From the NCBI RefSeq assembly GCF_058153355.1, contig NZ_CM177019.1: DNA of 64,000 bases; one strand, written 5' to 3'. The position numbers and the translations under genes are program-made. Below the pieces are notes generated by a model, which was given only the letters and a program-made list of their open reading frames with translations, was not told the origin of the DNA and made no database searches. Within the stretch, counting starts at the first letter, position 1, and every line of letters starts with the position of its first letter. Of the stretch, positions 4,392-52,631 are shown piece after piece.

Positions 4392-4416
4392 GGATAACAA
4401 GATAAACATTAGGGAA

Positions 4417-5202: not shown

Positions 5203-5210
5203 TATACGGG

Positions 5211-5480
5211 CTACCCGATGATATACGGCAGGTTAGTGAACAAGGTACGGACGTAATCCAGCAACAGATTGAGCATCCACGGTCCGGCAATAATAATGGC
5301 GATAAATACGGCGATGATTTTCGGAATAAACGACAGCGTCATTTCATTAATCTGCGTGGCGGCCTGCAAAATACTGATGATAAGGCCCGTGACCAACGCC
5401 ACCAGCAATAGCGGGGCAGCCAGTGCCAGCGCGACTTTCATCGCTTCAGTCCCCATCATCATGACCGATTCAGGTGTCAT
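5211..5480 (-). CDS. fliQ: Flagellar export apparatus protein FliQ
   Basis: 89-aa hydrophobic ORF; operon position. Confidence 0.93.
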
Positions 5481-5489
5481 TTTGCCTCT

Positions 5490-6227
5490 CTAGCTGTAAA
5501 AGCTCTGCGCCAGCGAACCGACCAGCAATTGCCAGCCATCCACCAGTACAAACAGCATCAGTTTAAAGGGCAGAGCAATGGTGGCCGGGGGCACCATCAT
5601 CATCCCCAATGCCATCAGTACGCTGGCAATCACCAGGTCGATAATCAAAAAAGGAATGAAAATCGTGAAGCCTATCTGAAATGCGGTTTTCAGCTCGCTG
5701 GTCACGTAGGCCGGGAGTAAAATGCGCATTGGCACGGCTTCAGGTCCCTGCAACGGGCCGGTATTCGCCAGTCTGGCAAACAACCCTAAATCTGCCTCGC
5801 GGGTCTGACGCAGCATAAACTCACGCAGCGGCTGCGCCCCTTTTTCCAGCGCCTCCTGCATTGAGATTTTCTCTTCGCTGAACGGCTGGTATGCATCGAC
5901 ATAAATTTTGTCGATCACCGGCGACATTATAAAAAAGGTCAAAAACAGTGCCAGCCCCAGCAATACCTGGTTGGGTGGTGCGGAGGGCGTGCCCAGCGCG
6001 TTTCGCAATAATCCAAAAACAATGATGATACGGGTGAAACTGGTCATCATCAGTAAAATCGCTGGAATAAACGTCAACGAGGTGATGAACACCAGCGTCT
6101 GCACCGGGAGGGACCAACTTTGTCCTCCGCCAGGCAGCGGCTGACTGGTGATACCCGGCAGTTGTGCGAAGGCGACGGGTGTAACCAGCCAGAGAAGAAC
6201 AGGTGCGACAGACAACAAACGACGCAT
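5490..6227 (-). CDS. fliP: Flagellar export apparatus protein FliP
   Basis: 245-aa ORF with signal peptide and conserved membrane segments. Confidence 0.93.
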
Positions 6228-6592
6228 CAGGATCTCCCGCTACGCTTAAGCAAGTTTTTCATGACCGACTGAAAATCGGTCTGTGGTATCTCTTCCGTTG
6301 GCGCAGAAGGGGGAAGTTTATGCAGCAGATTGATTTGCCCTGCGGTAACGCCGAGCACCAGCCGTGCATCTTCCACATCGACCACCACGACCCTTTCACG
6401 GGCGCCCAGCGAAGCACTGGCGCTAATTTTCAGACCGTTAACGCCAGTTCGTTTGGGGGCAAATCCCAGCCGTTTTACCAGCCAGGCAGCAGCGAGGATC
6501 AGGGCAATAATGGCGATCAGTGCGCCGCTCACCTGCAGCAGCGGTGCAGCAGAAACCGGCGCGGACGGTTGCACAGTAGCGTGGTTATTCAT
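6227..6592 (-). CDS. fliO: Flagellar protein FliO
   Basis: 121-aa ORF between fliN and fliP. Confidence 0.85.
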
Positions 6593-6594
6593 CG

Positions 6595-7008
6595 CTAACG
6601 GCTCAGGCGGCGCATTCGCTCAGACGGAGTAATGATATCGGTGATCCGCACGCCATATTTATCGGCAACGACCACCACTTCGCCCTGGGCGATTAAATAA
6701 CCGTTGATCAGAATATCCAGCGGTTCGCCTGCCAGGCCGTCCAGCGCTACGACTGACCCTTGTGTCAGGCGCAACAGCTCTTTGATGGTCATCCGCGTGC
6801 GGCCCAGTTCGACGGTCAGCTTAACCGGAATATCCATAATCAGGTCGATATCCTGCAACGTTCCGCTGACATCACCGCCGCCAAATTGCTGGAATACCGC
6901 GTCTGCAGCGCTTTTACTGCTGGTTGATTTTTGTTCGCTCAACGCTTCAGCCCACAGATCGTCCATTGCGCCGTTGTTATCATCGGCCGGATTATTCAAG
7001 TCACTCAT
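6595..7008 (-). CDS. fliN: Flagellar motor switch protein FliN
   Basis: 137-aa ORF; operon position. Confidence 0.93.
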   Translation of the reverse strand: MSDLNNPADDNNGAMDDLWAEALSEQKSTSSKSAADAVFQQFGGGDVSGTLQDIDLIMDIPVKLTVELGRTRMTIKELLRLTQGSVVALDGLAGEPLDILINGYLIAQGEVVVVADKYGVRITDIITPSERMRRLSR

Positions 7009-8009
7009 TTGGGCTGTTCCTCGTTCAGAGAATTCAAAATCGGGTTAATCAAATGTTCAATCCGTAACGCATACTGGCCGTTGAGGGTGCCGTACTGGCT
7101 GGTCAGCACCGGAACGCCGTCAACATGGGCGATGATGCGATCGGGTTTTTCTATCGGCAGGACGTCGCCGGGTTTCAGTTTTAAAATCTGCGACAGACGC
7201 AGCGATATATCGGCAAAGTTAGCGACCAGCTCCAGCTGTGAGTGCTGCACCTGACGCACCAGGTTATCGCGCCAGTTCTGATCTTCATTTCGTGAGTTTT
7301 CCAGCGGCGGGTTAACCAACAATTCCCGTAGCGGCTCGATCATGCTGAATGGCAGGCAGATATTAAATTCGCCGGTCAGGTTGCCAATCTCCACATGGAA
7401 CGGTGTGTTAACCACGATGTCGTTCGGCGAGGTGGTGATATTGGTAAATTTCACCTGCATTTCCGAACGCACGTACTCTACATCCAGCGGATTAATTGCC
7501 TTCCAGGCGTCGCTATAGCCTTCCAGCGCCAGCTTCAACATACGGTTGATGACGCGCTGTTCAGTATGGGTAAACTCGCGACCTTCCACTTTGGTTGGGA
7601 AGCGTCCATCGCCGCCAAACAGGTTATCCACGGCGATAAACACCAGACTCGGCGAGAACACCACCAGCCCTGTGCCGCGTAGCGGTTTCAGGTGGATTAG
7701 GTTCAGGTTGGTCGGCACCGGCAGGTTGCGGGCAAATTCATGGTACGGCTGAATGCGGATGGCCCCGACGGTAATGTCCGGGCTACGGCGCAATAGGTTG
7801 AACAGCCCCATACGGAAATGGCGGGCAAAACGCTCATTAATGATTTCCAGCGCCTGCAAACGTTCGCGTACAACCCGTCGTTGGGTATTCGGATCGTACG
7901 GACGAATGTCACTATCGCCGCTAACACTGGCCGTCGGTTCGTCTTTGACTTCGCTGTCACCATTCAACAGCGCATCAATTTCAGCTTGAGAAAGAATACT
8001 ATCGCCCAT
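7005..8009 (-). CDS. fliM: Flagellar motor switch protein FliM (334 aa from MGDSILSQAEIDALL)
   Basis: ORF 7005..8111 trimmed to the internal Met that gives the canonical 334-aa product. Confidence 0.92.
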   Translation of the reverse strand: MGDSILSQAEIDALLNGDSEVKDEPTASVSGDSDIRPYDPNTQRRVVRERLQALEIINERFARHFRMGLFNLLRRSPDITVGAIRIQPYHEFARNLPVPTNLNLIHLKPLRGTGLVVFSPSLVFIAVDNLFGGDGRFPTKVEGREFTHTEQRVINRMLKLALEGYSDAWKAINPLDVEYVRSEMQVKFTNITTSPNDIVVNTPFHVEIGNLTGEFNICLPFSMIEPLRELLVNPPLENSRNEDQNWRDNLVRQVQHSQLELVANFADISLRLSQILKLKPGDVLPIEKPDRIIAHVDGVPVLTSQYGTLNGQYALRIEHLINPILNSLNEEQPK

Positions 8010-8013
8010 GTCG

Positions 8014-8478
8014 TTATCGCAGAATAAAAGCGGTATACAGCACGTCGGTGACATCCTGTTTCGGTTGCCCGGCAACAAGCGGGGTGGAAAGTGTGGCTTT
8101 AATCTCAGCAATCAGGCTTTTCTTGCCTTCTTCTGTCGCCAGTACGGCAGCATCCTGACGCGAAAACAGTAACAGCAAGCGGCTACGGACTTCCGGCAAA
8201 TACTCACTTAGCCGCGAGCGGGTAGCTTCATCTTTTAGCCGCAGAGTTATGCCGATATAAAGCACGCGATCCGCATCACCCAAATTGACCGTAAAGGTAT
8301 CCAGCGCATAGAAGACCGGGGAGGGCACGACGCGTTGCTGCGCTTTGTCGTCAGCGGCAACCTGATGCGAATGCCAGTAGCTGTAACCTGCGCTGGCACA
8401 GGCCGCGAGGGTAATGAATACCAGAATCGGGATCCAAAGCGATCGCTTGCTTTTCTTGCTTATCGCGTAATCAGTCAT
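8014..8478 (-). CDS. fliL: Flagellar basal body-associated protein FliL
   Basis: 154-aa ORF, first gene of the fliLMNOPQR operon. Confidence 0.92.
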
Positions 8479-8582
8479 GTGTTGCGGTCTTCCTGTGTCG
8501 CTACTGCTTATCGGCTAATTATCCTGCGTCTTGAACGCAACAAAGCGGGGAAAAGACGCGGATTACGGTGCTACCTCTGACG

Positions 8583-9710
8583 TTAGGCGAAAATATCAAC
8601 GCCACTGTTGCCTGTTACGCGCCCTTGTAAAGAGACGGGAACGGGTAGCGCATCGTCGTCTTCACCCGCCAGAGGTTCATGATTTGCTGTGCGCTGGCTT
8701 TGCTGTTGCTGTGAAGCGGCCTGTTGCTGACCACTAAAGCTTTCGCCACTGATGTTGCTTTGCCCTAACTGAATGCCACTTTCTGCCAGCTGCGTACGCA
8801 GTACCGGTAGCGCAGCTTCCAGCGCGGCGCGTACGTGCTGATGCGGTGACACCATCTGGATTTGCGCCTGGCTATCATCCACTTTGAGGGAGATTTGTAC
8901 TTCACCTAAATCCTGCGGGTGCAGACGCAACTCTGCGCTTTGTTGCCCCTGGCGGGTAAACAGCGAAATATGCTGGCTTAATGATTGTTGCCATTCGTGA
9001 GAACCCAGCGGCGCACTCAAAACAGGTGCTGCGACGGTGGGCAGCGGCTGTGTCTGGTGCGGAGTGATGAGCGGGCTGACGGCAGCGGTCACCGGCGAAG
9101 GTGTGCTGATGACTTCCGCTTTACTCTGGGCTTCTGCTACCAGCGGTGTTACTGGCTGAGCTTGCGCGTCGGGGGCGTCATCAGGCTGTGCGGTTGTGAA
9201 TTGCGCAGTAGTCAGTTTTATGTAGAGAGTTGGTTTCTCTGTCGGTAACACGGTTGACGGCGCATCAGCCACTTTGGGCGTATTGTCAAAACCCGGCAAC
9301 ATCGCAAAAAGGGCGCTCAGGCTTGCGGTGACGTCTTCATTAAGCTCATCTGCTTTTTCGTCTTTTGTCGTATTTTTGTCAGCCACCGCAGCCAACGTCA
9401 TCGTCTGAGCGGTGGTTAACGGTGTTGATGTGGATTGTTCGTCGTTGATGACAGGCGGTATTTCATCCTCAGGGATCAGTAAATCCGCTTGTTGCACATC
9501 GGAAAGAATATCGCTAACCAGCGGCTCACCTTTTGTTATGGGTTTATCTGTTGCCACCAGCAACTGAGGGGCTGCTTTGTCGGTTGTTGTTTCACCTGCT
9601 ATTGCTCCACTCAACAATGCGAGAAAATCTTGTGCAGCATCGCTGGCTTTACCGCCGGGCAATATGGCGGTGTCAACGTCAGCGGTAATCACGGGCGCTA
9701 AGCGAATCAT
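8583..9710 (-). CDS. fliK: Flagellar hook-length control protein FliK
   Basis: 375-aa Pro/Gln/Ala-rich ORF; position. Confidence 0.92.
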
Positions 9711-10150
9711 TCGGGTTTCCTCATGGTGGCACGTTGGGCGAACTCATCCATCTTTTTCTGATCGAGACGGTTTTCTGCAAGCAGTGCCGCCGTGGATTGC
9801 CGTTCCTGCAGTGTCTGCCAGGCCTGCAAACGTTGTTTCTTTTCTCGCCAGCTGTTCAGGGCAATGTCAACTTTCTGCGTCCACTGATTAAGTTGCTGGC
9901 GATGCTGAGTAATGGCTTTTTCCAGCGTCTGGATAAACTGCTGATAGTTGATCCAGCGGTTACTGGTCATCCCGGCACTCATATCGCTGTTGAGGTTATT
10001 GCGATATTCATTCTGATAATCGATCAGCATTTTGAGTTGTTCCTCTGCCTGCTGGCATCCGCGACGCATTTCACCCAGCAGGCGCGCGGCATCTTCTACC
10101 TCTTTTTCTGCCAGATCTTTCAGGGTCGCCAGCGCGCCATGTTCTGCCAT
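9707..10150 (-). CDS. fliJ: Flagellar export chaperone-escort protein FliJ
   Basis: 147-aa coiled-coil ORF. Confidence 0.92.
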
Positions 10151-10171
10151 CTGCCGTTATCTCCTGCGTTT

Positions 10172-11541
10172 TCACACTGTCGGGAATATGCGCTCCAGCC
10201 CCTGGAGAGACTCTTCCCAGTCCGCGCGTTCAAAAATGCCTTGTTGCAAATAGCCCTCCAGCTGCGGCCACAGAGCGATGGCTTTATCGAGCATTGGATC
10301 GCTGCCTTTGGCATACGCGCCGACGCTAACCAGATCGCGGTTACGCTGAAAACTCGACAACAGCTGTTTGAAGGTGCGCACTCGCGCGTAATGTTGCTCG
10401 CTGATCAACGCCGTCATTGCACGGCTGATCGACGCTTCAATATCAATCGCCGGATAGTGTCCGGCTTCCGCCAGACGACGAGAAAGAACAATGTGACCGT
10501 CGAGGATCGCCCGTGCGGAGTCGGCAATCGGGTCCTGCTGGTCATCGCCTTCGGTGAGCACGGTATAAAACGCCGTAATTGAGCCGCCGCCGCTGATACC
10601 GTTACCGGCACGCTCGACCAGCGCCGGTAATTTGGCGAATACCGACGGTGGATAACCTTTGGTGGCAGGCGGTTCGCCAATCGCCAGCGCAATCTCACGC
10701 TGGGCCATCGCGTAGCGGGTGAGGGAGTCCATAATCAGCAACACATGCTGACCACGATCGCGAAAATCTTCGGCAATGCGCGTGGCATAGGCGGCACCTT
10801 GCATTCGCAGGAGCGGAGAAACATCCGCTGGAGCGGCAATCACCACGGAGCGTGCACGCCCTTCGGCACCGAGGATATTCTCAATAAAATCTTTTACTTC
10901 GCGCCCACGTTCACCAATCAAACCCACGACAATGACATCGGCGCGGGTGTAACGTGCCATCATCCCCAGCAGCACACTTTTACCGACACCAGAACCAGCA
11001 AATAGCCCCATACGCTGCCCGCGCCCAACGGTAAGCAGGGCATTGATTGGGCGCACGCCCGTGTCCAGCACATGTTCAATCGGTGTACGTTGCAAAGGGT
11101 TAAAAGGCGGGGTGATCAGCGCACCTGTTTCGGTCGTATCGGGGGAGGGAAGGCCATCAAGCGGTTTACCGCTGCCGTCCAGTACGCGACCTAACAACGC
11201 CGGACCGAGTGGCAACTGCTTGCCGCTTTGCAGCCCTTCAGCCGAAATGTGTTTGGCATAAACGCGCGCGCCGGGCAGGACACCTTCCACTTCTTCCAGC
11301 GGCATTAAAAACAGCCGTTGACCGTTAAAACCAACCACTTCGCTTTCTACTTCATGCGTTTCCGACCCGTTCTGGCGCTCAATCACACAGGTTGCGCCGA
11401 GCGGCAATTGTAATCCGGTAGCCTCCAGCACCAGCCCGGTGGCGCGGGTTAATCGCCCGTAGCGACGTACCGCAGGCAACTGCGCCATTTTGGCTTCGAA
11501 GTTATCCAGCGTGGTTAGCCAGCGAGTCAGGCGCGTGGTCA

Positions 11542-11542
<1 letters not shown>
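10172..11542 (-). CDS. fliI: Flagellum-specific ATPase FliI
   Basis: 456-aa ORF with Walker A GSGVGKS. Confidence 0.95.
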
Positions 11543-14867
<3,325 letters not shown>

Positions 14868-15396: not shown

Positions 15397-15729
15397 GTTG
15401 TGTAACCTGTTGTTGATTACATCCGATCTCACCGCGTGGGGCATGGATGGGGCAAACACACTCAATTTCTGGTTTAAAATGGAAACCTGATTCTGAAAGT
15501 TTTCTGCCATCCACGATCTGTAAACGCGATAACATGTTTTGTCTTCGCTTTGCTCATAGGAAGAGTGAACTCTTTCGTTAGCCTGGGGTTCCTTCTGATC
15601 ATTATTGTTCCTGCCTTTATCTCTTGCCACGCCAGAGCCCCCTGGATACACATACACCAGGATGAAAACGGTGAGTTGTGTTCAAACTGTAGTACAATTC
15701 TCTCCAGTATGAACAGGAAAGAATATGCT

Positions 15730-16062
15730 ATGAACCCTTATATTTATCTTGGTGGCGCAATACTTGCAGAGGTCATTGGTACAACCTTAATGAAGTTTTC
15801 AGAGGGGGTTACACGGTTATGGCCCTCTGTTGGCACAATTATTTGTTATTGTGCCTCATTCTGGTTATTAGCTCAGACGCTGGCTTATATACCTACAGGG
15901 ATTGCTTATGCTATCTGGTCAGGAGTCGGTATCGTTCTGATTAGTTTGCTTTCCTGGGGATTTTTTGGCCAACGGCTGGACCTGCCAGCCATCATAGGCA
16001 TGATGTTGATTTGTGCCGGTGTGTTAGTCATTAACTTGTTGTCACGAAGTGCACCGCATTAA
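15730..16062 (+). CDS. emrE: Small multidrug resistance (SMR) efflux protein EmrE
   Basis: C-terminal 110 aa of ORF 15550..16062 (MNPYIYLGGAILAEVIGTTLMKFSEG...) match recalled EmrE, including the conserved Glu14. Confidence 0.9.
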   Translation: MNPYIYLGGAILAEVIGTTLMKFSEGVTRLWPSVGTIICYCASFWLLAQTLAYIPTGIAYAIWSGVGIVLISLLSWGFFGQRLDLPAIIGMMLICAGVLVINLLSRSAPH

Positions 16063-16230
16063 AAAATAATCATCCTTGAGATAACAAGAATCTGATTTGT
16101 GCATATTATGGCTAATGTTCGGGGCAACTTTATAATTATGATTGCATTTGCGCGATCATTGCGCCTTTTTGCATAATGAGATCAAGGCACATCAAATAAA
16201 ATAACGATAGGTCACAACAAAGAGGTTTTT

Positions 16231-16782
16231 ATGAAAAAACTTATCGTTTCAAGTGTATTGGCATTCATAACATTTTCTGCGCAGGCCGCAGCATTTCAGG
16301 TCACTAGTAATGAAATAAAAACAGGAGAGCAACTTACAACGTCTCATGTATTTTCTGGATTTGGGTGTGAGGGGGGGAATACATCGCCCTCATTAACCTG
16401 GTCTGGTGCTCCTGAAGGCACCAAAAGCTTTGCCGTAACTGTGTATGATCCAGATGCGCCTACAGGCAGTGGATGGTGGCACTGGACTGTTGCTAATATT
16501 CCAGCAACGGTAACATATTTGCCCGCTGATGCAGGAAGACGTGATGGTACAAAACTTCCGACTGGTGCTGTCCAAGGCCGAAATGATTTTGGCTATGCGG
16601 GATTTGGTGGAGCATGTCCTCCCAAAGGAGATAAACCCCATCATTACCAGTTTAAAATATGGGCTCTAAAAACTGATAAGATTCCTGTGGATTCTAATTC
16701 CAGCGGAGCGTTAGTTGGTTATATGCTTAATGCCAATAAAATTGCAACCGCTGAGATAACACCCGTTTATGAGGTAAAGTAG
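16231..16782 (+). CDS. ybcL: YbcL, periplasmic PEBP/RKIP-family (UPF0098) protein; DLP12-prophage-type cargo
   Basis: 183-aa ORF with signal peptide and PEBP motifs (DPDAP, GWWHW, GxHHY); follows emrE as in DLP12. Confidence 0.85.
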   Translation: MKKLIVSSVLAFITFSAQAAAFQVTSNEIKTGEQLTTSHVFSGFGCEGGNTSPSLTWSGAPEGTKSFAVTVYDPDAPTGSGWWHWTVANIPATVTYLPADAGRRDGTKLPTGAVQGRNDFGYAGFGGACPPKGDKPHHYQFKIWALKTDKIPVDSNSSGALVGYMLNANKIATAEITPVYEVK

Positions 16783-16791
16783 GATAAGAGT

Positions 16792-17589
16792 ATGCTGGCA
16801 AAAGATAGGACTAACCTAAAGATTGAAGAAATACGGATGCATAAACATCATGAGATTCACAGGGTTAAGCCTCTTATGCCAGCTTTATGTCGTATCCGTC
16901 AGGGAAAAAAAGTTATCAATTGGGAGACGCATAGTCTAACTGTTGATAATAATCAGATAATATTATTTCCCTGTGGATATGAATTTTATATTGCGAATTA
17001 CCCAGAAGCAGGTCTTTATCTTGCAGAAATGCTTTATTATCCCATTGATCTAATTGAAAAGTTCCAAAATCTTTATGCGATAACCGATCAAATTCGTAAC
17101 ACGACAGGTTTCTGCTTACCTCAGAATCCCGAGTTAATATATTGTTGGGAGCAACTAAAAACATCTGTTTCCCGAGGCTTCTCAACGCAAATTCAGGAAC
17201 ACTTAGCAATGGGCGTTCTACTTTCATTAGGAGCACATCATGTTAATTGTTTACTTTTATCAGATAGTAAACAATCATTAATAAGTCGTTGTTATAACCT
17301 AATGCTATCCGAACCTGGAACAAAATGGACAGCAAACAGGGTAGCGAGATATCTCTACATTTCTGTTTCCACATTGCATCGCCGTCTGGCAAGCGAGGGA
17401 GTAAGTTTTCAAAGTATATTGGACGACGTGAGGTTAAATAATGCGTTGTCTGCTATACAAACGACAGTAAAACCCATCAGCGAGATTGCCAGGGAAAATG
17501 GTTACAAGTGTCCTTCTCGTTTTACTGAAAGGTTCCATAATCGTTTTAAGATAACACCAAGAGAGCTAAGAAAAGCGTCCAGAGAGTAA
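16792..17589 (+). CDS. ybcM: AraC-family transcriptional regulator YbcM
   Basis: 265-aa ORF with C-terminal AraC-type HTH; order matches DLP12 ybcL-ybcM. Confidence 0.8.
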
Positions 17590-17598
17590 AAGTATTTT

Positions 17599-17718
17599 AT
17601 GAAGGAGCAACAGCATCGATTTTTATTTTGGAAAATCAATACGGCATACTCAACCTATTGGAGCCTGAACAATCCGGTGACTTCTGCGCTAATCGGGGAC
17701 GTTTATAAGCACATATAA
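17599..17718 (+). CDS. Candidate small ORF (39 aa, MKEQQHRFLFWKINTAYSTYWSLNNPVTSALIGDVYKHI), possibly ylcH-like
   Basis: Short ORF immediately after ybcM, where DLP12 carries ylcH; no convincing ribosome-binding site. Confidence 0.25.
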   Translation: MKEQQHRFLFWKINTAYSTYWSLNNPVTSALIGDVYKHI

Positions 17719-18042
17719 TTGATACTCTCTTCCTCCATCACAATTTCAGAAATGCACGTGTGATTTTTTGGCATCCGGCGTTTGGACTATGTGGAGTTCA
17801 AGAGTGGGAAAGTTACAAGAGGTTGAGGGGATAATTAAAGGGATGCTTATGACATTAGATATCCGGTTAGGTACGGATATCGTTGTTATTAAATCTAATT
17901 GATACGTTAATTGTTCACTGAGTATTATTAAAAATGGGGCGTTGAAACGCCCCAGAAAATAAAGGGTAATATATAACAGAAGGTTTATATAGTCAGAAGC
18001 AAGATAGCGCTTCTAAGGAAAGTGGCTTGAGGGGGCCACTTA

Positions 18043-18075
18043 TATGTTGGGGAGGCAAAGCCTCCCACAACATAT
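18043..18075 (-). terminator. Perfect inverted repeat (atgttggggaggc / gcctcccacaacat) just downstream of the porin gene
   Basis: 13-bp stem with 4-nt loop directly 3' of the porin stop at 18091. Confidence 0.6.
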
Positions 18076-18090
18076 CTTTGAGTAATCAGA

Positions 18091-19173
18091 TTAGAACTGG
18101 TAAACCAATCCTACAGCAACGATATCATCGGTAGCAACGCCAGATGCTTTCGTGAAATCGCTCTTATCAATCAGGTTGATTTTGTAATCAACAAAAGTGG
18201 ACATATTTTTGTTGAAGTAATAGGTTGCACCTACATCAATATATTCAACCAGGTCCTGATCACCCCACGCACCCAAGTCTTTTCCTTTAGATTGCAGGTA
18301 AGCAACGGACGGACGCAGACCGAAGTCGAACTGATATTGTGCAACTACTTCGAAGTTTTGTGCTTTGTTGGCAATATGGTTATTACCAAAAACAGTCATG
18401 TTCTGGGTTTCAGAATAGGTGGTAGCCAGATAGATGTTGTTCGCATCATATTTCAGACCAGCTGCCCATACTTCAGCATTTTGACCAGATGCATTCAGGC
18501 TGTTGTTACCGTAGATAACCTGATCATTAGTGCGGTCAGATTTAGCATAGGTTGCACCTACACCGAATCCTTCATACTCATAAGTAGTGGAGAAACCGAA
18601 ACCATCACCGTTAGCTTCAGTTACGTCAGTGCGGTCATTTTTACCCTGATACTGAGCAGCAAAGTTCAGACCATCAACCAGACCAAAGAAGTCGTTGTTA
18701 CGATAAGTTGCAACACCTGTGGTGCGACCAGTCATGAACACATCTGTTTGGGTCCAGGTATCGCCACCGAATTCTGGCAGAACGTCGGTCCATGCACCGA
18801 TATCGTATGCTACACCGTAGTTACGGCCATAATCGATGGAGCCGTAGTCACCGAATTTCAGGCCAGCGAAGGCAAGACGGGTTTTATCTTTGGAAGAACC
18901 TTGAGATTCAGCACGGTTGCCTTTGAATTCATATTCCCACTGACCGAAACCAGTCAGTTGATCGTTGATTTGGGTTTCGCCTTTGAAGCCCAGACGAACA
19001 TAAGTTGTGTCGCCATCATCTGCATCGTTAGAAGAGAAGTAGTGCTTAGCATTAACTTTTCCGTACAGATCCAGCTTGTTACTGTCTTTATTGTAAATCT
19101 CTGCTGCCTGAGCAGACATCGCCATCAGTACTGATGCAGCTACAGCAGAAATTGCCACTGTTAATTTTTTCAT
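18091..19173 (-). CDS. nmpC: Intact NmpC/OmpD-type general porin of the OmpC/OmpF family
   Basis: 360-aa ORF with signal peptide ([23 protein letters not shown]) and C-terminal ...VGLVYQF; closest to recalled NmpC; prophage-type cargo on the opposite strand to emrE-ybcM as in DLP12. Confidence 0.8.
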
Positions 19174-19703
19174 CGTGAGCCCTTTTATTTGAACTATTAT
19201 TTAAAAATGATGTCACTGCACCACAAATATTCATCTAATCAATGAGATTATTTCAAGATGTAAGTTTTAGTTTCTCATTTAAATTGTGAAGTAGATCCCT
19301 ATTTTTATCTGAACTGTTTCTATTGCACACAATGCATGACTATTTTGTGAACGAATATAAATTTGGTAGTCAAATTATATTAAAGGTTGTTATTTATGAT
19401 TGACTCATAATTTATTTATTTAATTTAAATAGCCTAAAAATAACCATGGAGATTATTTGCATGATATTTGTTTAGATTTGTTAATGTAGTTGAGGTGATT
19501 TTATTTAATACGCAATATAGCGCCGCTTGATATTAGTTCTATTTTTTTTTTGCGTAAGATAGATGAGACAAACTGAGACGCATAATGGTTTGCAAGGCTC
19601 TAATACTTTGATGTTGAGGATGTGATGGGGCATGTACGTGCATAGTACAATGATGTCCATGCCGGTGTGGATAATCTCCAGGCTTATCCGGTGCGCCGTA
19701 AAA

Positions 19704-20177
19704 CCCCGTCCTTCAGGGCGGGGATATAAGGCGCGGTTTTCCACCTGACCAGGTGTTTGCTGTTGTTCAATGTATTGGCGGATGACGGATATTGGCGCAC
19801 CTCCGCAGCTACTGGCAAAATAGCCGGGACTCCACAAAACGCCTTTGTAGTAATACCTGACTGCAATATCTGGTCGATCTCGTCGCAGTAATCTACCCGA
19901 TACGCCTTTGTGGCTGTTTACCAGACTGGATATCGCCAGTTTGGGAGGATAGTTAATTAACAAATGGACGTGATTCTGGTTCGCCATCCATTTCAACCAG
20001 TTCAGCTTCAAAATCAGCACATACATTTGAAAAGTAAGTGCGTAGTTTTTCTGTCGCGTCATGGTCAAAAATCTGACGTCGGTATCTGGTGACAAAGACC
20101 CGGTGAACATGCATCAGAAAAACACAGTGCCTTCCACGCCGGATATCGGTTTCTTTTTTCACAGACCAAAGTATCAT
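19704..20177 (-). pseudogene. tnpA: IS200/IS605 Y1 (HuH) transposase TnpA, split by a frameshift
   Basis: N-terminal part in ORF 19953..20177 (HCVFLMHVHRVFVTRYRRQIF...ELVEMDGEPE); HuH motif and catalytic-Tyr region in a different frame in ORF 19505..20110 (NHVHLLINYPP...SCGGAPISVIRQYIEQQQ); frame switch near 19965..19985. Confidence 0.7.
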
Positions 20178-20184
20178 TTGGCCT

Positions 20185-21393
20185 GTGAAACGACTACAAG
20201 CATTTAAATTCCAGTTAAGACCAGGTGGTCAACAGGAGCGTGAAATGAGGCGCTTCGCAGGCGCATGTCGTTTCGTTTTCAATCGTGCTCTGGCACGTCA
20301 GAATGAGAATCATGAGGCCGGTAATAAATACATCCCTTACGGGAAAATGGCTTCCTGGCTGGTTGAGTGGAAAAATGCCACTGAAACGCAATGGCTTAAA
20401 GATTCGCCCTCACAGCCATTGCAACAGTCACTGAAAGACCTTGAGCGGGCTTACAAAAACTTCTTCCAGAAGCGGGCTGCTTTTCCCCGATTCAAAAAGC
20501 GGGGACAGAATGATGCATTCCGCTACCCGCAGGGCGTTAAGCTCGATCAGGAAAACAGCCGTATTTTTCTGCCGAAACTGGGCTGGATGCGCTACCGGAA
20601 CAGCCGTCAGGTCACGGGTGTTGTGAAAAATGTCACGGTCAGCCAGTCCTGCGGTAAGTGGTACATCAGTATTCAGACAGAAAGTGAAGTATCCACTCCG
20701 GTTCATCCTTCAGCATCAATGGTCGGGCTGGATGCTGGCGTGGCTAAACTCGCCACGCTGTCAGATGGCACAGTCTTTGAGCCTGTAAACAGTTTTCAGA
20801 AAAACCAGAAGACGCTGGCGAGACTTCAGCGACAGTTAAGCCGCAAGGTCAAATTCAGCAACAACTGGCAGAAGCAGAAACGCAAAATACAGCGACTGCA
20901 TTCCCGTATCGCAAATATCCGCAGGGACTACCTTCACAAAGTCACAACGACCGTCAGCAAAAACCACGCAATGATAGTCATTGAGGATTTGAAGGTCAGC
21001 AACATGTCAAAGTCAGCAGCGGGTACGGTCAGCCAGCCGGGGCGCAATGTCCGGGCAAAATCAGGTTTAAACCGTTCGATACTGGATCAGGGCTGGTATG
21101 AAATGCGCCGCCAGCTTGAGCACAAGCAGCTCTGGAGTGGCGGTCAGGTGCTTGCTGTTCCGCCAGCGTACACAAGCCAGCGTTGCGCGTGCTGTGGTCA
21201 TACAGCGAAAGAAAACCGCCTGTCACAAAGTAAATTCAGATGCCAGGTATGTGGATATACAGCGAACGCCGATGTAAATGGCGCTCGTAACATTTTAGCG
21301 GCGGGGCACGCCGTTCTTGCCTGTGGAGAGATGGTGCAGTCAGGCCGCCCGTTGAAGCAGGAACCCACCGAAATGATTCAGGCGACAGCCTGA
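20185..21393 (+). CDS. tnpB: TnpB (IS605 OrfB), RuvC-like RNA-guided endonuclease; intact; GTG start
   Basis: 402-aa ORF; N-terminus resembles TnpB; C-terminal zinc finger CxxC...CxxC ([37 protein letters not shown]) and RuvC-like segments. Confidence 0.85.
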
Positions 21394-21432
21394 ACGTAGC
21401 AGGGATCCACGTCCTTCAGGGCGTGGAGGATG

Positions 21433-22105
21433 TCAACAAACAGGTTGAATTAACTTCGCGCCCTGGTTTTTGACATTACCCACCGCGCGCGACACAGGGT
21501 GCCAGGTGAACTGGTTTGCTGGAACACAGCCACTGGCAGAAATTTCAGAGGCTTCTTTACCGCTAATCTCTTGCCGCATCCATTCCCGCGCAGCTTCTGG
21601 CGACAGTACCAGCGGGCGGCGGTCATGAATATCTACCAGACCCTGGTCTGCTGCTGCAGTGACAATTAAAAATCCTTCGGCTTCGTCACCACGCTCAAAC
21701 GGTGTGCTACCTATCGCGGCTATAAAAACAGGTTGTCCATCAGCGCGATAGATAAAATAAGGCTGTTTTTTTGTCGCCTTCTTTTTTCCACTCAAACCAG
21801 CCATCGGCAAAACAGATTGCCCGACCATGTTGCCAGAGCGGTTTAAACATACGACTGGTTGCCGCAGTTTCTACGCGGGCGTTAATCAGCGGCGGTTTAT
21901 CCCACCATCCGGGAGCATATCCCCAGAAAACCGGATCCAGATGAAGGTGTTCATCACGTTCACTGAGCAGAAGAACTTTGGTTCCCGGCGCGACGTTGTA
22001 TCTGCCAATGGGTTCGGGATCGTAGGGAATATCGCGTTCAATATCTTCCGCGAGAAGCGCAAGGTAATCTTCACGCGTTTGGGATTGGGCAAAGCGTCCA
22101 CACAT
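21433..22105 (-). pseudogene. yedK: YedK (SRAP/HMCES-family abasic-site processing protein) disrupted by a +1 frameshift in a homopolymer run
   Basis: N-terminal 121-aa ORF (MCGRFAQSQ..., catalytic Cys2) and C-terminal 131-aa ORF overlap in different frames; 7-nt T run at 21766..21772 where the intact reading requires 6. Confidence 0.8.
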
Positions 22106-28299: not shown

Positions 28300-29781
28300 A
28301 TGGCACAAGTCATTAATACCAACAGCCTCTCGCTGATCACTCAGAACAACATCAACAAAAACCAGTCTGCGCTGTCGACGTCTATCGAGCGTCTGTCTTC
28401 CGGTCTGCGTATCAACAGCGCAAAGGATGATGCAGCGGGCCAGGCCATTGCTAACCGTTTCACCTCTAACATTAAAGGCCTGACTCAGGCTGCACGTAAC
28501 GCCAACGACGGTATTTCTCTGGCGCAGACTACTGAAGGCGCGCTGTCTGAGATTAACAACAACTTGCAGCGTGTGCGTGAGTTGACTGTACAGGCGACGA
28601 CCGGGACTAACTCTGAATCTGACCTGTCTTCTATCCAGGATGAAATCAAATCCCGTTTAAGCGAAATTGACCGTGTTTCTGGTCAGACTCAGTTTAACGG
28701 CGTGAACGTACTGGCTAAGAATGACACCCTGTCTATTCAGGTAGGTGCAAATGACGGTCAGACTATCAATATTGACCTGCAGCAGATCGATTCTCATACA
28801 CTGGGTCTGGATGGTTTCAGCGTTAAAAACAATGATGCAGTGAAAACCAGTGCTGCGGTGAATACTCTTGGGGGTGGGGCAAGTTCTGTTGCTGTCGACT
28901 TCGCAACAACCAATTTGACTGCTATCGCTGGTCTCGGTGGCGGTGCTATCAGCGAAATTGCTAAAGACGATAATGGTGATTACTACGCGCATGTTACAGG
29001 GACTACGGGTAGTACTGCTGATGGTTACTATGCTGTCGATATTGACAAGGCTAACGGTAAGGTCGCTCTGAAAGATGGTAACGTAGATACACCGACAGGT
29101 ACGCCAACGACGACAAGCACATATGACTTCACAGACGCTGGTCAAACCGTTTCCTTTGGCACTGATGCTGCAACAGCAGGTATCAGCACTGGCGCTTCTC
29201 TCGTCAAACTTCAGGATGAGAAAGGCAATGATACTGCTACTTATGCAATCAAAGCACAAGATGGCAGCCTGTATGCCGCCAACGTTGATGAGACTACCGG
29301 TAAAGTCACTGTCAAAACCGCCAGCTATACCGATGCTGACGGCAAAGCAGTGACCGATGCCGCTGTAAAACTGGGTGGCGACAATGGCAAAACCGAAATT
29401 GTTGTCGATGCTGCGTCAGGTAAAACTTACGATGCTGGTGCACTGCAAAACGCTGATCTCTCCAGTGCAACCAACACGGTAACCGCAATCCCGAACGGTA
29501 AAACCACGTCTCCTCTGGCTGCCCTTGACGACGCAATCAGCCAGATCGACAAATTCCGCTCCTCCCTCGGTGCGGTACAAAACCGTTTGGATTCCGCCGT
29601 CACCAACCTGAACAACACCACTACCAACCTGTCTGAAGCGCAGTCCCGTATTCAGGACGCCGACTATGCGACCGAAGTGTCCAACATGTCGAAAGCGCAG
29701 ATTATCCAGCAGGCCGGTAACTCCGTGCTGGCAAAAGCCAACCAGGTACCGCAGCAGGTTCTGTCTCTGCTGCAGGGTTAA
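28300..29781 (+). CDS. fliC: Flagellin FliC (493 aa from MAQVINTNSL); conserved termini with a variable central H-antigen domain
   Basis: ORF trimmed to the canonical start; N- and C-terminal regions match recalled flagellin, central region diverges from K-12. Confidence 0.93.
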   Translation: MAQVINTNSLSLITQNNINKNQSALSTSIERLSSGLRINSAKDDAAGQAIANRFTSNIKGLTQAARNANDGISLAQTTEGALSEINNNLQRVRELTVQATTGTNSESDLSSIQDEIKSRLSEIDRVSGQTQFNGVNVLAKNDTLSIQVGANDGQTINIDLQQIDSHTLGLDGFSVKNNDAVKTSAAVNTLGGGASSVAVDFATTNLTAIAGLGGGAISEIAKDDNGDYYAHVTGTTGSTADGYYAVDIDKANGKVALKDGNVDTPTGTPTTTSTYDFTDAGQTVSFGTDAATAGISTGASLVKLQDEKGNDTATYAIKAQDGSLYAANVDETTGKVTVKTASYTDADGKAVTDAAVKLGGDNGKTEIVVDAASGKTYDAGALQNADLSSATNTVTAIPNGKTTSPLAALDDAISQIDKFRSSLGAVQNRLDSAVTNLNNTTTNLSEAQSRIQDADYATEVSNMSKAQIIQQAGNSVLAKANQVPQQVLSLLQG

Positions 29782-39771: not shown

Positions 39772-39847
<76 letters not shown>

Positions 39848-39900
39848 GTTTAAAAGACATCGGCTTCAGCGGATGTCCGGCTGAAAGGCCTGAAGAATTT

Positions 39901-39974
39901 GGCGCGTTAACAAAGCGGTTATGTAGCGGATTGCAAATCCGTCTAGTCCGGTTCGACTCCGGAACGCGCCTCCA
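39901..39974 (+). tRNA. cysT: tRNA-Cys (GCA)
   Basis: ggcgcgttaacaaagcggttatgtagcggattGCAaatccgtc...ggttcgactccggaacgcgcctcca; 74 nt. Confidence 0.93.
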
Positions 39975-39986
39975 CTTTCTTCCCGA

Positions 39987-40073
39987 GCCCGGATGGTGGA
40001 ATCGGTAGACACAAGGGATTTAAAATCCCTCGGCGTTCGCGCTGTGCGGGTTCAAGTCCCGCTCCGGGTACCA
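39987..40073 (+). tRNA. leuZ: tRNA-Leu (UAA) with long variable arm
   Basis: gcccggatggtggaatcggtagacacaagggattTAAaatccc...gggttcaagtcccgctccgggtacca; 87 nt. Confidence 0.93.
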
Positions 40074-45747: not shown

Positions 45748-46743
45748 ATGCACAAATTTACTAAAGCCCTGGTAGCCATTGGTCTGGCAGCCGTTATGTC
45801 ACAATCCGCTATGGCGGAGAACCTGAAGCTCGGTTTCCTGGTGAAGCAACCGGAAGAGCCGTGGTTCCAGACCGAATGGAAGTTTGCCGATAAAGCCGGG
45901 AAGGATTTAGGGTTTGAAGTTATTAAGATTGCCGTGCCGGATGGCGAAAAAACATTGAACGCTATCGACAGCCTGGCTGCCAGTGGCGCGAAAGGTTTCG
46001 TTATTTGTACTCCGGACCCGAAACTCGGCTCTGCCATCGTGGCGAAAGCGCGTGGCTACGATATGAAAGTCATTGCCGTGGATGACCAGTTTGTTAACGC
46101 CAAAGGCAAGCCAATGGATACCGTTCCGCTGGTGATGATGGCAGCGACCAAAATTGGCGAACGTCAGGGCCAGGAACTGTATAAAGAGATGCAGAAACGT
46201 GGCTGGGATGTCAAAGAAAGCGCGGTGATGGCGATTACCTCCAACGAACTGGATACGGCTCGTCGCCGTACTACGGGTTCTATGGATGCGCTGAAAGCTG
46301 CAGGATTCCCGGAAAAACAAATTTATCAGGTACCTACCAAATCTAACGACATCCCCGGGGCATTTGACGCTGCCAACTCAATGCTGGTTCAACATCCGGA
46401 AGTTAAACATTGGCTGATCGTCGGTATGAACGACAGCACCGTGCTGGGCGGCGTACGCGCGACGGAAGGTCAGGGCTTTAAAGCGGCCGATATTATCGGT
46501 ATCGGTATCGGTATTAACGGTGTGGATGCAGTAAGCGAACTGTCTAAAGCACAGGCAACCGGCTTCTACGGTTCCCTGCTGCCAAGCCCGGACGTACATG
46601 GCTATAAATCCAGTGAAATGCTTTACAACTGGGTAGCAAAAGACGTTGAACCGCCAAAATTTACCGAAGTTACCGACGTGGTACTGATCACGCGTGACAA
46701 CTTTAAAGAAGAACTGGAGAAAAAAGGTTTAGGCGGTAAGTAA
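45748..46743 (+). CDS. araF: Periplasmic L-arabinose-binding protein AraF
   Basis: 331-aa ORF with signal peptide (AVMSQSAMA). Confidence 0.93.
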   Translation: MHKFTKALVAIGLAAVMSQSAMAENLKLGFLVKQPEEPWFQTEWKFADKAGKDLGFEVIKIAVPDGEKTLNAIDSLAASGAKGFVICTPDPKLGSAIVAKARGYDMKVIAVDDQFVNAKGKPMDTVPLVMMAATKIGERQGQELYKEMQKRGWDVKESAVMAITSNELDTARRRTTGSMDALKAAGFPEKQIYQVPTKSNDIPGAFDAANSMLVQHPEVKHWLIVGMNDSTVLGGVRATEGQGFKAADIIGIGIGINGVDAVSELSKAQATGFYGSLLPSPDVHGYKSSEMLYNWVAKDVEPPKFTEVTDVVLITRDNFKEELEKKGLGGK

Positions 46744-46812
46744 TCTGCCGGAAAAATTCCCCTCTGCATGATGCAGAGGGGGTGTGAACGACCAGTGATT
46801 CACGGAGACGTT

Positions 46813-48327
46813 ATGCAACAGTCTACCCCGTATCTCTCATTTCGCGGCATCGGTAAAACGTTTCCCGGCGTTAAGGCGCTGACGGATATTAGTTTTGACT
46901 GCTATGCCGGTCAGGTTCATGCGTTGATGGGTGAAAATGGCGCAGGAAAATCAACTCTCTTAAAAATCCTCAGCGGCAACTATGCGCCAACCACGGGTTC
47001 TGTAGTGATTAATGGGCAGGAAATGTCCTTTTCCGACACAACCGCAGCACTTAACGCGGGTGTGGCGATTATTTACTAGGAACTGCATCTCGTGCCGGAA
47101 ATGACCGTCGCGGAAAACATCTATCTCGGCCAGCTGCCGCATAAAGGCGGCATTGTGAATCGCTCATTGCTGAATTATGAGGCGGGTTTACAACTTAAAC
47201 ATCTTGGTATGGATATTGACCCGGACACGCCGCTGAAATATCTCTCCATTGGTCAGTGGCAGATGGTTGAAATTGCCAAAGCGCTGGCGCGTAACGCCAA
47301 AATTATCGCCTTTGATGAGCCAACCAGCTCCCTCTCTGCCCGTGAAATCGACAATCTTTTCCGCGTTATTCGTGAACTGCGAAAAGAGGGGCGGGTGATC
47401 TTATACGTTTCTCACCGTATGGAAGAAATATTTGCCCTCAGCGATGCCATCACCGTCTTTAAAGATGGGCGTTATGTCAAAACCTTTACTGATATGCAGC
47501 AGGTTGACCACGACGCCCTGGTGCAGGCGATGGTCGGGCGCGACATCGGCGATATCTACGGTTGGCAACCGCGTAGTTATGGCGAGGAGCGGCTGCGTCT
47601 TGATGCTGTGAAAGCACCAGGCGTGCGTACGCCAATAAGTCTGGCGGTTCGCAGTGGAGAAATTGTCGGTCTGTTTGGTCTGGTCGGGGCAGGGCGTAGC
47701 GAATTAATGAAAGGCATGTTTGGCGGTACGCAAATCACCGCCGGTCAGGTTTATATCGACCAACGGCCGATTGATATTCGTAAACCGAGCCACGCTATTG
47801 CCGCAGGCATGATGCTCTGCCCGGAAGATCGCAAAGCGGAAGGCATTATTCCTGTGCACTCCGTTCGCGACAATATCAACATCAGTGCCAGACGCAAACA
47901 TGTGCTCGGCGGTTGTGTAATCAACAACGGTTGGGAAGAAAACAATGCCGATCACCACATTCGTTCGCTCAACATCAAAACGCCGGGCGCAGAGCAACTG
48001 ATCATGAATCTTTCAGGCGGAAATCAGCAAAAAGCCATTCTGGGCCGCTGGTTATCGGAAGAGATGAAGGTCATTTTGCTGGATGAACCTACGCGCGGCA
48101 TTGATGTTGGTGCTAAGCATGAAATTTACAACGTGATTTATGCGCTGGCAGCGCAGGGCGTGGCGGTGCTGTTTGCCTCCAGCGACTTACCCGAAGTCCT
48201 CGGCGTTGCCGACCGGATTGTGGTGATGCGGGAAGGCGAAATCGCCGGTGAATTGTTACACGAGCAGGCAGATGAGCGTCAGGCACTGAGCCTTGCGATG
48301 CCTAAAGTTAGCCAGGCAGTTGCCTGA
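46813..48327 (+). pseudogene. araG: Arabinose ABC transporter ATPase AraG interrupted by an in-frame amber codon (TAG at 47077..47079)
   Basis: Reading frame split into a 103-aa ORF (46768..47079, with Walker [10 protein letters not shown]) and a 411-aa ORF (47092..48327) in the same frame; the TAG sits where the recalled K-12 protein has Gln ([12 protein letters not shown]). Confidence 0.8.
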
Positions 48328-48341: not shown

Positions 48342-51694
<3,353 letters not shown>

Positions 51695-52129: not shown

Positions 52130-52631
52130 AACCTGTTCCTTATTCTGTGAACTTCAGGTGACATTAAAGCTTTACTCCTAATGGAGAATCGACGCAATCC
52201 CAACTCAGTCAAACAGGTAAATATTAGTGTGATTATTAGTAAATACAATTAATCAATCACTCTCGGTGATCATATGATTTCAACTGTAATTATAAGAAAA
52301 TAATGTACTGATTCTCCATATCAAACAAGTGGTTAATATATGTAAAACATTTTATTAACATTAAGTTGATTGTTGCCTTTCTTTGTATTTAATTAGTTTG
52401 TTGTGCGGTAAGTGTCTGTTTAAAAATAGCTTATCGGGTATTGCATTAAAGCAATTATTTATAGCAGATGATTATTTACGGTGAGTTATTTTAACTGTGC
52501 GCAACATCCCATTTCGATTATTCCTGTTTCATTTTTACTTGCTATCGTAGCGAAAAACTTTTTAACAGATTGAAATACACCCAAAACAAAAGTATGACTT
52601 ATACATTTATGTTAAGTAATTGAGCGTTTTG

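What the first reader, a model, noticed from the sequence alone, without database searches (positions are those of the whole stretch)
47077..47079. In-frame amber codon truncates araG after 88 codons
The araG frame contains TAG at the position where the recalled K-12 protein has Gln (…[16 protein letters not shown]…). The stop falls after the first Walker A motif. An in-frame ATG 5 codons downstream (47092) could allow reinitiation, but the product would lack the N-terminal nucleotide-binding motif. The high-affinity arabinose ABC transporter is therefore predicted non-functional unless the strain carries an amber suppressor.
Basis: partly seen in the sequence, partly recalled or inferred. Interest (0 to 1): 0.5.

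Follow-up and report, generated by a model that had tools for sequence, protein, structure and literature searches.

The report
araG knocked out by amber codon
A single C-to-T change turns codon 89 of araG, the ATPase gene of the high-affinity arabinose transporter, into a stop codon; this is an ordinary gene knock-out that has arisen many times in E. coli and Shigella, here at a DNA-methylation site known to mutate easily.

Summary
araG runs from 46813 to 48327 (+), and codon 89 (47077-47079) is TAG where K-12 and about 5,400 complete E. coli genomes have CAG (Gln). An independently assembled SRA contig is 100.000% identical over 18.5 kb and has the same TAG, so this is not an assembly slip. 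Gln89 is the Q-loop glutamine of the first nucleotide-binding domain. The only canonical Walker A motif (residues 40-47) lies upstream of the stop, so no restart product (GTG 47092 or ATG 47101) can be a working ATPase. Apart from the stop, the gene differs from its nearest relatives only at synonymous sites, and araH is intact, so the lesion is recent. The identical allele is already public: RefSeq annotates it as a pseudogene ("internal stop") in strain CFSAN061761, and it is deposited as a Shigella boydii protein. It occurs on at least 5 araG haplotypes. The mutated base is the methylated C of a Dcm site (CCAGG to CTAGG), the classic origin of amber hotspots, and the lineage has intact dcm and vsr. 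Controls weaken that point: non-Dcm nonsense alleles of araG also recur (28-166 contigs against 198). Verdict: a real, ordinary, already-known pseudogene. A methylation origin is plausible but not shown.

The parts
45748..46743 (+). araF, periplasmic arabinose-binding protein. Intact, but 331 aa instead of 329 because of an in-frame 6-bp repeat expansion.
   Evidence: 98.8% aa identity to K-12 AraF with a 2-residue gap. The same 331-aa product is called in L028.
46813..48327 (+). araG pseudogene (ATP-binding subunit, 504 codons) interrupted at codon 89.
   Evidence: The pieces match NCBIfam NF008442 (AraG) at profile positions 1-88 and 94-503.
46930..46953 (+). Walker A of nucleotide-binding domain 1 (GENGAGKS, residues 40-47). 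This is the only canonical Walker A in the protein.
   Evidence: Motif scan. The second domain has GLVGAGRS (Lys replaced by Arg) at residues 289-296.
47076..47080 (+). Former Dcm site: CTAGG here, CCAGG in wild-type araG. The changed base (47077) is the inner, methylated cytosine.
   Evidence: Complete genomes carry CCAGG in all but one case.
47077..47079 (+). Amber codon replacing Gln89, the Q-loop glutamine of domain 1.
   Evidence: Gln89 aligns with Gln475 of human ABCB1 in the motif VVSQEP.
47092..48327 (+). Downstream in-frame ORF (411 codons from GTG Val94; ATG Met97 at 47101). AGGA at 47078-47081 lies 10 nt upstream of the GTG and could act as a ribosome-binding site, making this a possible restart product. 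The product would lack Walker A and the Q-loop of domain 1.
   Evidence: Gene callers call this 411-aa product in public assemblies.
48342..49328 (+). araH, the permease. Intact, with 1 aa difference from K-12.
39772..40073 (+). glyW-cysT-leuZ tRNA cluster with wild-type anticodons GCC, GCA and UAA. There is no amber suppressor in the window.
   Evidence: K-12 annotation.

Best explanation
A recent, lineage-specific C-to-T transition converted Gln89 (CAG) of araG into an amber stop. Translation ends after 88 residues. That fragment keeps the only canonical Walker A but lacks everything else. Any restart at GTG94 or ATG97 gives a protein without the Walker A and Q-loop of domain 1, which belong to the one consensus ATP site (Walker A and H-loop of domain 1 plus the LSGGN signature of domain 2). 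AraG is therefore inactive and the AraFGH high-affinity L-arabinose importer is lost. Uptake is left to the proton symporter AraE, which lies outside the window. The stop may also lower araH expression through polarity. Shown here: the base, the frame, the motif positions, the recurrence of the allele and its pseudogene annotation. Inferred: the loss of transport and the polarity. Probable origin (about 0.55): deamination of 5-methylcytosine at the inner C of the Dcm site CCAGG, with the resulting T:G mismatch escaping Vsr repair. This is the mechanism behind the classic lacI amber hotspots.
For: The TAG is in frame at codon 89 where K-12 has CAG. L028 is 100% identical over 18.5 kb and carries the same TAG and the same araF insertion. 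All differences from the nearest CAG-bearing relatives, apart from the stop, are synonymous (7 against H1, 15 against L029), and araH is intact, so the lesion is recent. Gln89 aligns with the Q-loop Gln475 of ABCB1. The only GxxxxGK[ST] motif is at residues 40-47, and domain 2 has GAGRS. The identical allele in E. coli CFSAN061761 is annotated as a pseudogene with an internal stop. The 88-aa product is on 198 contigs and 287 blocks, including Shigella boydii 965-58, and sits on at least 5 araG haplotype backgrounds. Sites 16 bp upstream and 8 bp downstream show all four allele combinations with the stop. For the Dcm origin: the wild-type context is CCAGG and the inner C is the base that mutated. 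Intact dcm (472 aa) and vsr (156 aa) lie 2-4 kb left of the window in L035, which is 100% identical to window 1-12585. Q89am is the commonest of 11 transition-type stops tested (198 contigs against 28-166; 127 against 5-29 blocks on contigs of 10 kb or more). CCWGG is an established C-to-T hotspot that Vsr counteracts (PMC13250602; PMC2715241). AraE and AraFGH are two independent uptake routes (PMC12299780).
Against: No functional measurement exists. The rest of the genome could not be checked for a suppressor tRNA. UAG can be read through at a low level by near-cognate tRNA-Gln, which would restore the wild-type residue (my own knowledge). Against the Dcm origin: non-Dcm nonsense alleles also recur on 3-4 backgrounds, and two of them reach 148 and 166 contigs. 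The excess is therefore only 1.2x over the next commonest and about 3.3x over the median, and counts are inflated unevenly by clonal expansion. The second Dcm stop site, Q501, has only 29 contigs, although it was counted on the K-12 protein background only. Between the window and K-12, transitions at Dcm inner cytosines are fewer than at other G:C positions (6/320 against 1426/29156; odds ratio 0.37, p=0.008).
Confidence: 0.8

Rival explanations
1. The TAG is a sequencing or assembly error and the gene is really intact.
For: It is a single-base difference from all but one of about 5,400 complete genomes. The window also has a homopolymer-length frameshift in yedK, which is the kind of change sequencing errors produce.
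Against: An independently built Logan assembly of SRA reads (L028, plus two similar contigs) is 100.000% identical over 18,540 bp, TAG included. A substitution is not a typical error of either short or long reads. The same allele exists in many unrelated assemblies.
Confidence: 0.03
2. The amber is suppressed or leaky, by a supE/supF-type tRNA or by near-cognate read-through with tRNA-Gln, so enough full-length AraG is made for the transporter to work.
For: Insertion of Gln would recreate exactly the wild-type protein. araF, araH and the rest of araG show no decay.
Against: No suppressor is among the three tRNAs in the window. Suppressor alleles are rare in natural isolates, and natural read-through is typically about a percent or less (my own knowledge). 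The absence of decay is equally explained by a recent mutation.
Confidence: 0.07
3. Translation restarts at GTG94 or ATG97, and the 411-residue product, alone or together with the 88-residue fragment, still powers transport.
For: AGGA at 47078-47081 lies 10 nt upstream of GTG 47092, a usable spacing for a ribosome-binding site. The terminating ribosome is only 12 nt away. The C-terminal piece alone scores above the AraG family cut-off (757.7 against 689).
Against: The restart product lacks the only canonical Walker A and the Q-loop glutamine. The remaining Walker A-like motif has Arg in place of the catalytic Lys. Reassembly of a domain split at the Q-loop, with the Gln itself missing, is unlikely (inference).
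Confidence: 0.03
4. The C-to-T change is an ordinary transition, such as a replication error or deamination of unmethylated C, and the Dcm context is a coincidence. araG simply collects knock-outs because selection on it is weak.
For: Every transition-type stop tested is present on 28-166 contigs and on several haplotypes. Other lesions are common too: a 4-bp duplication in L029/L030, a 104-aa product on 106 contigs, and lineage-wide lesions labelled S. sonnei and S. flexneri. There is no long-term excess of transitions at Dcm sites.
Against: The mutated base is exactly the methylated C of one of only three Dcm sites in the gene. dcm is intact in this lineage. The allele ranks first of the 11 tested, and 4-25x higher on long contigs. 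Published work establishes CCWGG as a hotspot.
Confidence: 0.4
5. Loss of AraFGH is adaptive in some niches, and the allele is maintained by selection rather than being a transient neutral or slightly harmful variant.
For: Many different independent lesions occur in araG, including a second kind on a closely related haplotype. On the K-12 protein background the knock-out Q89am (roughly 30-35 blocks) is about as frequent as the near-neutral Q501am (58 blocks).
Against: Each allele is rare: 1 in about 5,400 complete genomes, and a few hundred blocks against 77,285 for one full-length variant. Substitutions between lineages are almost all synonymous, so the gene is under long-term purifying selection.
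Confidence: 0.1

Closest known systems
E. coli K-12 AraG (b1900), ATP-binding subunit of the AraFGH L-arabinose ABC importer (NCBIfam NF008442)
   Same: Same locus and neighbours (ftnB-araF-araG-araH-otsBA). 99.6% amino-acid identity over 504 codons. Same two-domain architecture and motifs.
   Different: Codon 89 is TAG instead of CAG, so the reading frame is interrupted. One missense difference, Q318R.
araG pseudogene ('internal stop') of E. coli CFSAN061761 (NZ_CP042903.1), and the 88-aa AraG fragment deposited for Shigella boydii 965-58 (EIQ33233.1)
   Same: Identical mutation, C265T (Gln89 to amber).
   Different: Different araG haplotypes. CFSAN061761 is K-12-like, with 0 other differences from K-12, whereas the window has 36. 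These are independent origins, or much less likely gene-conversion tracts shorter than 24 bp.
Amber hotspots at Dcm sites: lacI CCAGG ambers (Coulondre, Miller, Farabaugh and Gilbert 1978) and lambda cI am6 with very-short-patch repair (Lieb). Both cited from my own knowledge; the general statement is supported by PMC13250602 and PMC2715241.
   Same: C-CAG-G becomes C-TAG-G by a C-to-T change at the inner, methylated cytosine. The host lineage has dcm and vsr.
   Different: Methylation of this site and an elevated rate at it were not measured. The population counts show only a modest excess over non-Dcm stops.
araG lesions in Shigella lineages (216-aa product labelled S. sonnei on 936 contigs; 35-37-aa products labelled S. 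flexneri on more than 1,000 contigs)
   Same: Inactivation of the same gene.
   Different: Different lesions, fixed in heavily decayed genomes. In the window 64 of 66 genes compared with K-12 are intact and the flagellar and chemotaxis genes are whole.

Membership tests
AraG (L-arabinose ABC transporter ATP-binding protein, NCBIfam NF008442 equivalog) | Sequence match to the family model above the curated cut-off | tested here: met
   The C-terminal 411-residue piece alone scores 757.7 bits against a cut-off of 689, at profile positions 94-503. The N-terminal piece matches profile positions 1-88.
AraG (L-arabinose ABC transporter ATP-binding protein, NCBIfam NF008442 equivalog) | Operon context araF-araG-araH | tested here: met
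   araF 45748-46743, araG 46813-48327, araH 48342-49328. The region is collinear with K-12.
AraG (L-arabinose ABC transporter ATP-binding protein, NCBIfam NF008442 equivalog) | Uninterrupted reading frame encoding both nucleotide-binding domains in one polypeptide | tested here: not met
   In-frame TAG at codon 89. This is therefore a pseudogene of the family, not a functional member.
AraG (L-arabinose ABC transporter ATP-binding protein, NCBIfam NF008442 equivalog) | ATP-dependent high-affinity arabinose transport together with AraF and AraH | not testable with these tools
   Needs uptake assays.
C-to-T hotspot mutation at a Dcm site (5-methylcytosine deamination) | The ancestral sequence is CCWGG and the change is C-to-T at the inner C | tested here: met
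   TAC CAG GAA becomes TAC TAG GAA; CCAGG spans nt 264-268 of araG. The 51-bp queries matched 5,397 complete genomes and only one had the TAG; I did not read the site base by base in the others.
C-to-T hotspot mutation at a Dcm site (5-methylcytosine deamination) | The host encodes Dcm methyltransferase (and Vsr) | tested here: met
   L035 is 100% identical to window 1-12585 and carries full-length dcm (472 aa) and vsr (156 aa) just beyond the window edge. These genes are not inside the window itself.
C-to-T hotspot mutation at a Dcm site (5-methylcytosine deamination) | The site is actually methylated in vivo | not testable with these tools
   Needs bisulfite, SMRT or nanopore 5mC data from a CAG-bearing relative.
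C-to-T hotspot mutation at a Dcm site (5-methylcytosine deamination) | The mutation recurs more often than comparable C-to-T changes at non-Dcm sites | tested here: inconclusive
   Q89am is on 198 contigs against 28-166 for ten non-Dcm transition stops, and in 127 against 5-29 blocks on contigs of 10 kb or more. It sits on 5 backgrounds against 3-4 for controls. The other Dcm stop, Q501am, has only 29 contigs (K-12 protein background only). Counts are not independent events. The deep-divergence test shows a deficit.
Amber codon rescued by a suppressor tRNA (supE/supF type) | A tRNA gene with a CUA anticodon in the genome | tested here: not met
   Only glyW(GCC), cysT(GCA) and leuZ(UAA) are in the window. 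The rest of the genome could not be examined.

The most novel reading that the evidence does not exclude
The CCAGG at the Q-loop codon of araG could behave as a two-way mutational switch. Deamination of 5-methylcytosine turns the high-affinity arabinose importer off at an elevated rate. Vsr-biased repair of CTAGG/CCAGG heteroduplexes, or back-mutation, turns it on again. Populations would then keep standing on/off variation for this ATP-costly transporter. The allele's recurrence on at least 5 backgrounds, and the deficit of long-term substitutions at Dcm sites, are compatible with this but do not demonstrate it.
Probability: 0.05. Interest if true: 0.4.

Novelty: already known. Interest (0 to 1): 0.2.

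Why it matters
For this strain it predicts loss of micromolar-affinity arabinose uptake while growth on ordinary arabinose concentrations via AraE is kept. That matters for phenotype prediction and for arabinose-inducible expression work. More generally, araG is a gene that E. coli and Shigella lose again and again, and the case shows how easily "recurrence on several haplotypes" can be mistaken for a site-specific hotspot. In a collection this large, every transition-type stop codon tested recurs. The finding opens no new biological question.

Tried and rejected
(1) My first translation was one base out of frame; corrected. (2) An exact 30-mer scan of the GTDB species representatives for the TAG allele found nothing. 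(3) I tested the idea that the window comes from a decaying Shigella-like genome and rejected it: there are no repeated IS copies, 64 of 66 K-12 genes are intact, and all flagellar and chemotaxis genes are whole. (4) I first read the presence of the allele on several haplotypes as proof of a Dcm hotspot. I dropped that after the controls, because Q69am and Q107am sit on 4 and 3 backgrounds and other stops reach 148-166 contigs. (5) I suspected that contig ends mimic truncations. That does happen (L049-L051), but calibration with codons that cannot become stops gave only 0-3 contigs, so it is a minor effect. (6) The deep-divergence test for faster evolution at Dcm cytosines gave the opposite sign. 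[quoted passage not shown] (8) Literature searches for araG nonsense or pseudogene reports returned nothing specific.

Full report
THE OBSERVATION. The window carries the E. coli ftnB-araF-araG-araH-otsBA-uspC-flhDC region, in the opposite orientation to K-12. araG starts at ATG 46813 and ends at 48327. Its translation is a full 504-codon AraG with one internal stop...[15 protein letters not shown].... A base-by-base comparison with K-12 araG gives 37 differences: 35 synonymous, one missense (Q318R), and CAG to TAG at nt 265, which is codon 89 at window 47077-47079. One detail is wrong. Position 47092 is GTG (Val94), not ATG, and the first in-frame ATG (Met97) is at 47101.

IS THE BASE REAL? 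The source genome is not among the 5,426 complete RefSeq E. coli genomes. The best match is 99.3% over araG and 98.8% over 24 kb. Looking up the exact 411-residue downstream product in the large assembly collection returned a Logan contig from SRR31441161 (L028). It is 100.000% identical to the window over 18,540 bp, including the TAG and a private 6-bp insertion in araF, and two more contigs are in the same group. Logan contigs are built from raw reads, so the TAG is in reads and not only in one polished assembly. I cannot tell whether that run is the source's own data.

WHAT THE STOP REMOVES. The two pieces match NCBI's AraG equivalog model at profile positions 1-88 and 94-503, and the larger piece alone exceeds the family cut-off. 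The only canonical Walker A (GENGAGKS) is at residues 40-47, upstream of the stop. The second domain has GLVGAGRS, with Arg in place of the catalytic Lys. The signature motifs are LSIGQ (144) and LSGGN (400). Gln89 aligns with Gln475 of human ABCB1 in the motif VVSQEP, which from my own knowledge is that protein's Q-loop glutamine. From established knowledge of ABC ATPases, the consensus ATP site of AraG is therefore built from the Walker A and Q-loop of domain 1 plus the signature of domain 2. The 88-residue product has the Walker A and nothing else. A restart product from GTG94 or ATG97 lacks both the Walker A and the Q-loop. Restart is physically plausible, because AGGA at 47078-47081 lies 10 nt upstream of the GTG, but the product should be inactive. 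The inference is that AraFGH is lost and arabinose enters only through AraE, the second, independent uptake system (PMC12299780). Polarity on araH is possible but untested.

AGE AND GENOMIC BACKGROUND. Against its nearest CAG-bearing relatives, the window's araG differs at 7 sites (H1) or 15 sites (L029/L030), and all of them are synonymous except the stop. araH is intact with 1 aa difference from K-12. araF is intact apart from an in-frame Gly-Ile insertion. There is thus no decay after inactivation, which means the mutation is recent. The genome is not Shigella-like. Of 66 K-12 genes in the region, 64 are intact, including all fli, flh, mot and che genes. Only araG (stop) and yedK (frameshift) are broken, and no repeated IS copies are present. 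The three tRNA genes in the window (glyW, cysT, leuZ) have normal anticodons. The rest of the genome could not be checked for suppressors.

THE ALLELE IS NOT NEW. The exact 88-residue product is indexed in 287 blocks and 198 contigs of public assemblies. Deposited names include a Shigella boydii 965-58 protein, EIQ33233.1. Among complete genomes, a 51-bp query around the site matches 5,069 genomes on one local haplotype and 328 on the other. The allele is thus rare, about 1 in 5,400 complete genomes, against 77,285 blocks for a single full-length AraG variant. It nevertheless sits on at least 5 distinct araG haplotypes: the window's (36 differences from K-12), a K-12-identical one (L008, L011), and three others. 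Polymorphic sites 16 bp upstream and 8 bp downstream occur in all four combinations with the stop. The allele therefore arose repeatedly, unless conversion tracts shorter than 24 bp are invoked.

ORIGIN: THE DCM-SITE HYPOTHESIS AND ITS CONTROLS. The wild-type context is TAC-CAG-GAA. That contains CCAGG, one of only three Dcm sites in araG, and the mutated base is its inner, methylated cytosine. C-CAG-G to C-TAG-G is the textbook origin of amber hotspots (Coulondre et al. 1978, from my own knowledge). CCWGG as a C-to-T hotspot and Vsr repair of CTWGG/CCWGG mismatches are documented in PMC13250602 and PMC2715241. The lineage has intact dcm and vsr 2-4 kb beyond the window's left edge, as shown by L035, which is 100% identical to window 1-12585.

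I then tested whether this site recurs more than comparable sites. Block counts on contigs of 10 kb or more favour it: 127 against 29, 21, 10 and 5 for Q69, Q107, Q148 and W149. However, the non-Dcm stops also lie on 3-4 haplotype backgrounds. In contig counts, Q89am (198) is first of 11 transition-type stops but is close to Q230 (166) and Q148 (148). The median of the others is about 57-62. The second Dcm stop, Q501am, has only 29 contigs, counted on the K-12 protein background only. Fragments ending before codons that cannot mutate to a stop are seen on 0-3 contigs, so contig-end artefacts are minor, though they do occur (L049-L051). Between the window and K-12 over about 50 kb, transitions at Dcm inner cytosines are fewer than at other G:C positions (1.9% against 4.9%; odds ratio 0.37, p=0.008). 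That fits Vsr's tendency to preserve Dcm sites, but it gives no positive support for a hotspot. My conclusion is that a methylation origin is the most likely single cause for this particular C-to-T change (about 0.55). The data here show a modest excess, not a dramatic one.

araG IS LOST OFTEN. Besides all the tested stops, I found several other lesions. A related haplotype (L029/L030, 98.35% identical to the window) has CAG at codon 89 but a 4-bp CGCG duplication 20 bp upstream. A 104-residue product on 106 contigs cannot come from a single substitution. A 216-residue product labelled S. sonnei is on 936 contigs, and 35-37-residue products labelled S. flexneri are on more than 1,000. On the K-12 protein background, the knock-out Q89am (about 10 of 24 sampled contigs out of 80 blocks) is roughly as frequent as the near-neutral Q501am at 58 blocks. 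This suggests the loss is only weakly selected against over the short lifetimes of such alleles. The almost purely synonymous divergence between lineages shows long-term purifying selection. Together these point to mutation-selection balance on a dispensable but useful gene. Adaptive loss is not excluded.

VERDICT. It is an ordinary, recent nonsense pseudogene of a well-known gene. The identical allele is already in public databases and annotated as a pseudogene, and its likely mutational mechanism has been known since 1978. Interest is low.

Noticed in passing
window 46498-46515 (araF): The hexamer GGTATC is present three times where K-12 has two copies of the equivalent unit. This adds Gly-Ile (…IIGIGIGING…) to AraF, giving 331 aa instead of 329. 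It is private to this lineage (also in L028) and absent from the other fetched loci in which araF was called. Its effect on the binding protein is unknown. It could be a second hit to the same transporter.
   Followed up: partly
window about 21772 (yedK, ORFs 21433-21828 and 21740-22105, minus strand): yedK is split into two frames by a +1 A in a homopolymer (A7 here, A6 in K-12). It is the only other broken gene among the 66 compared with K-12. It could be a real frameshift or a homopolymer sequencing error.
   Followed up: partly
window 15534-21436: A 5.9-kb segment with no K-12 counterpart lies between fliE and yedK, where K-12 has yedL, yedN and the intG remnant. It carries emrE (SMR efflux), a YbcL-type kinase inhibitor, an AraC-family regulator, an OmpC/PhoE-like porin, an IS200/IS605 transposase ORF that matches only profile positions 37-126, and a full-length RNA-guided endonuclease TnpB (383 bits).
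   Followed up: partly
L029:6645-7000 and L030:57-400: The araG haplotype closest to the window's in its 5' part (it shares the otherwise private nt 228 A and also R318) has CAG at codon 89. It is knocked out by a 4-bp CGCG duplication about 20 bp upstream instead. This is an independent second lesion in a related lineage.
   Followed up: partly
public collection (cluster 1, protein P0003): A 104-residue AraG N-terminal product occurs on 106 contigs (e.g. E. coli HVH 156), although the next codon (CTC) cannot become a stop in one step. It presumably marks an IS insertion or indel fixed in a clone. I had intended it as an artefact control and it behaved differently.
   Followed up: no
window against K-12, about 50 kb of collinear sequence: Transitions at the methylated positions of CCWGG sites are under-represented relative to other G:C positions (6/320 against 1426/29156; odds ratio 0.37, p=0.008). 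This is the opposite of a naive hotspot expectation. It may reflect Vsr-biased repair or codon-position effects, which I did not control for.
   Followed up: partly
window 46760-46780: A perfect 9-bp inverted repeat (ccctctgca tga tgcagaggg) lies in the 69-bp araF-araG spacer. It looks like an intercistronic stem-loop. I did not fold or compare it.
   Followed up: no
window 52604-52611 and 28300-29778: The IS1 that sits upstream of flhDC in K-12 MG1655 is absent here. fliC is only 69% identical to K-12 FliC and fliD only 80%, so this strain has a different H antigen.
   Followed up: no
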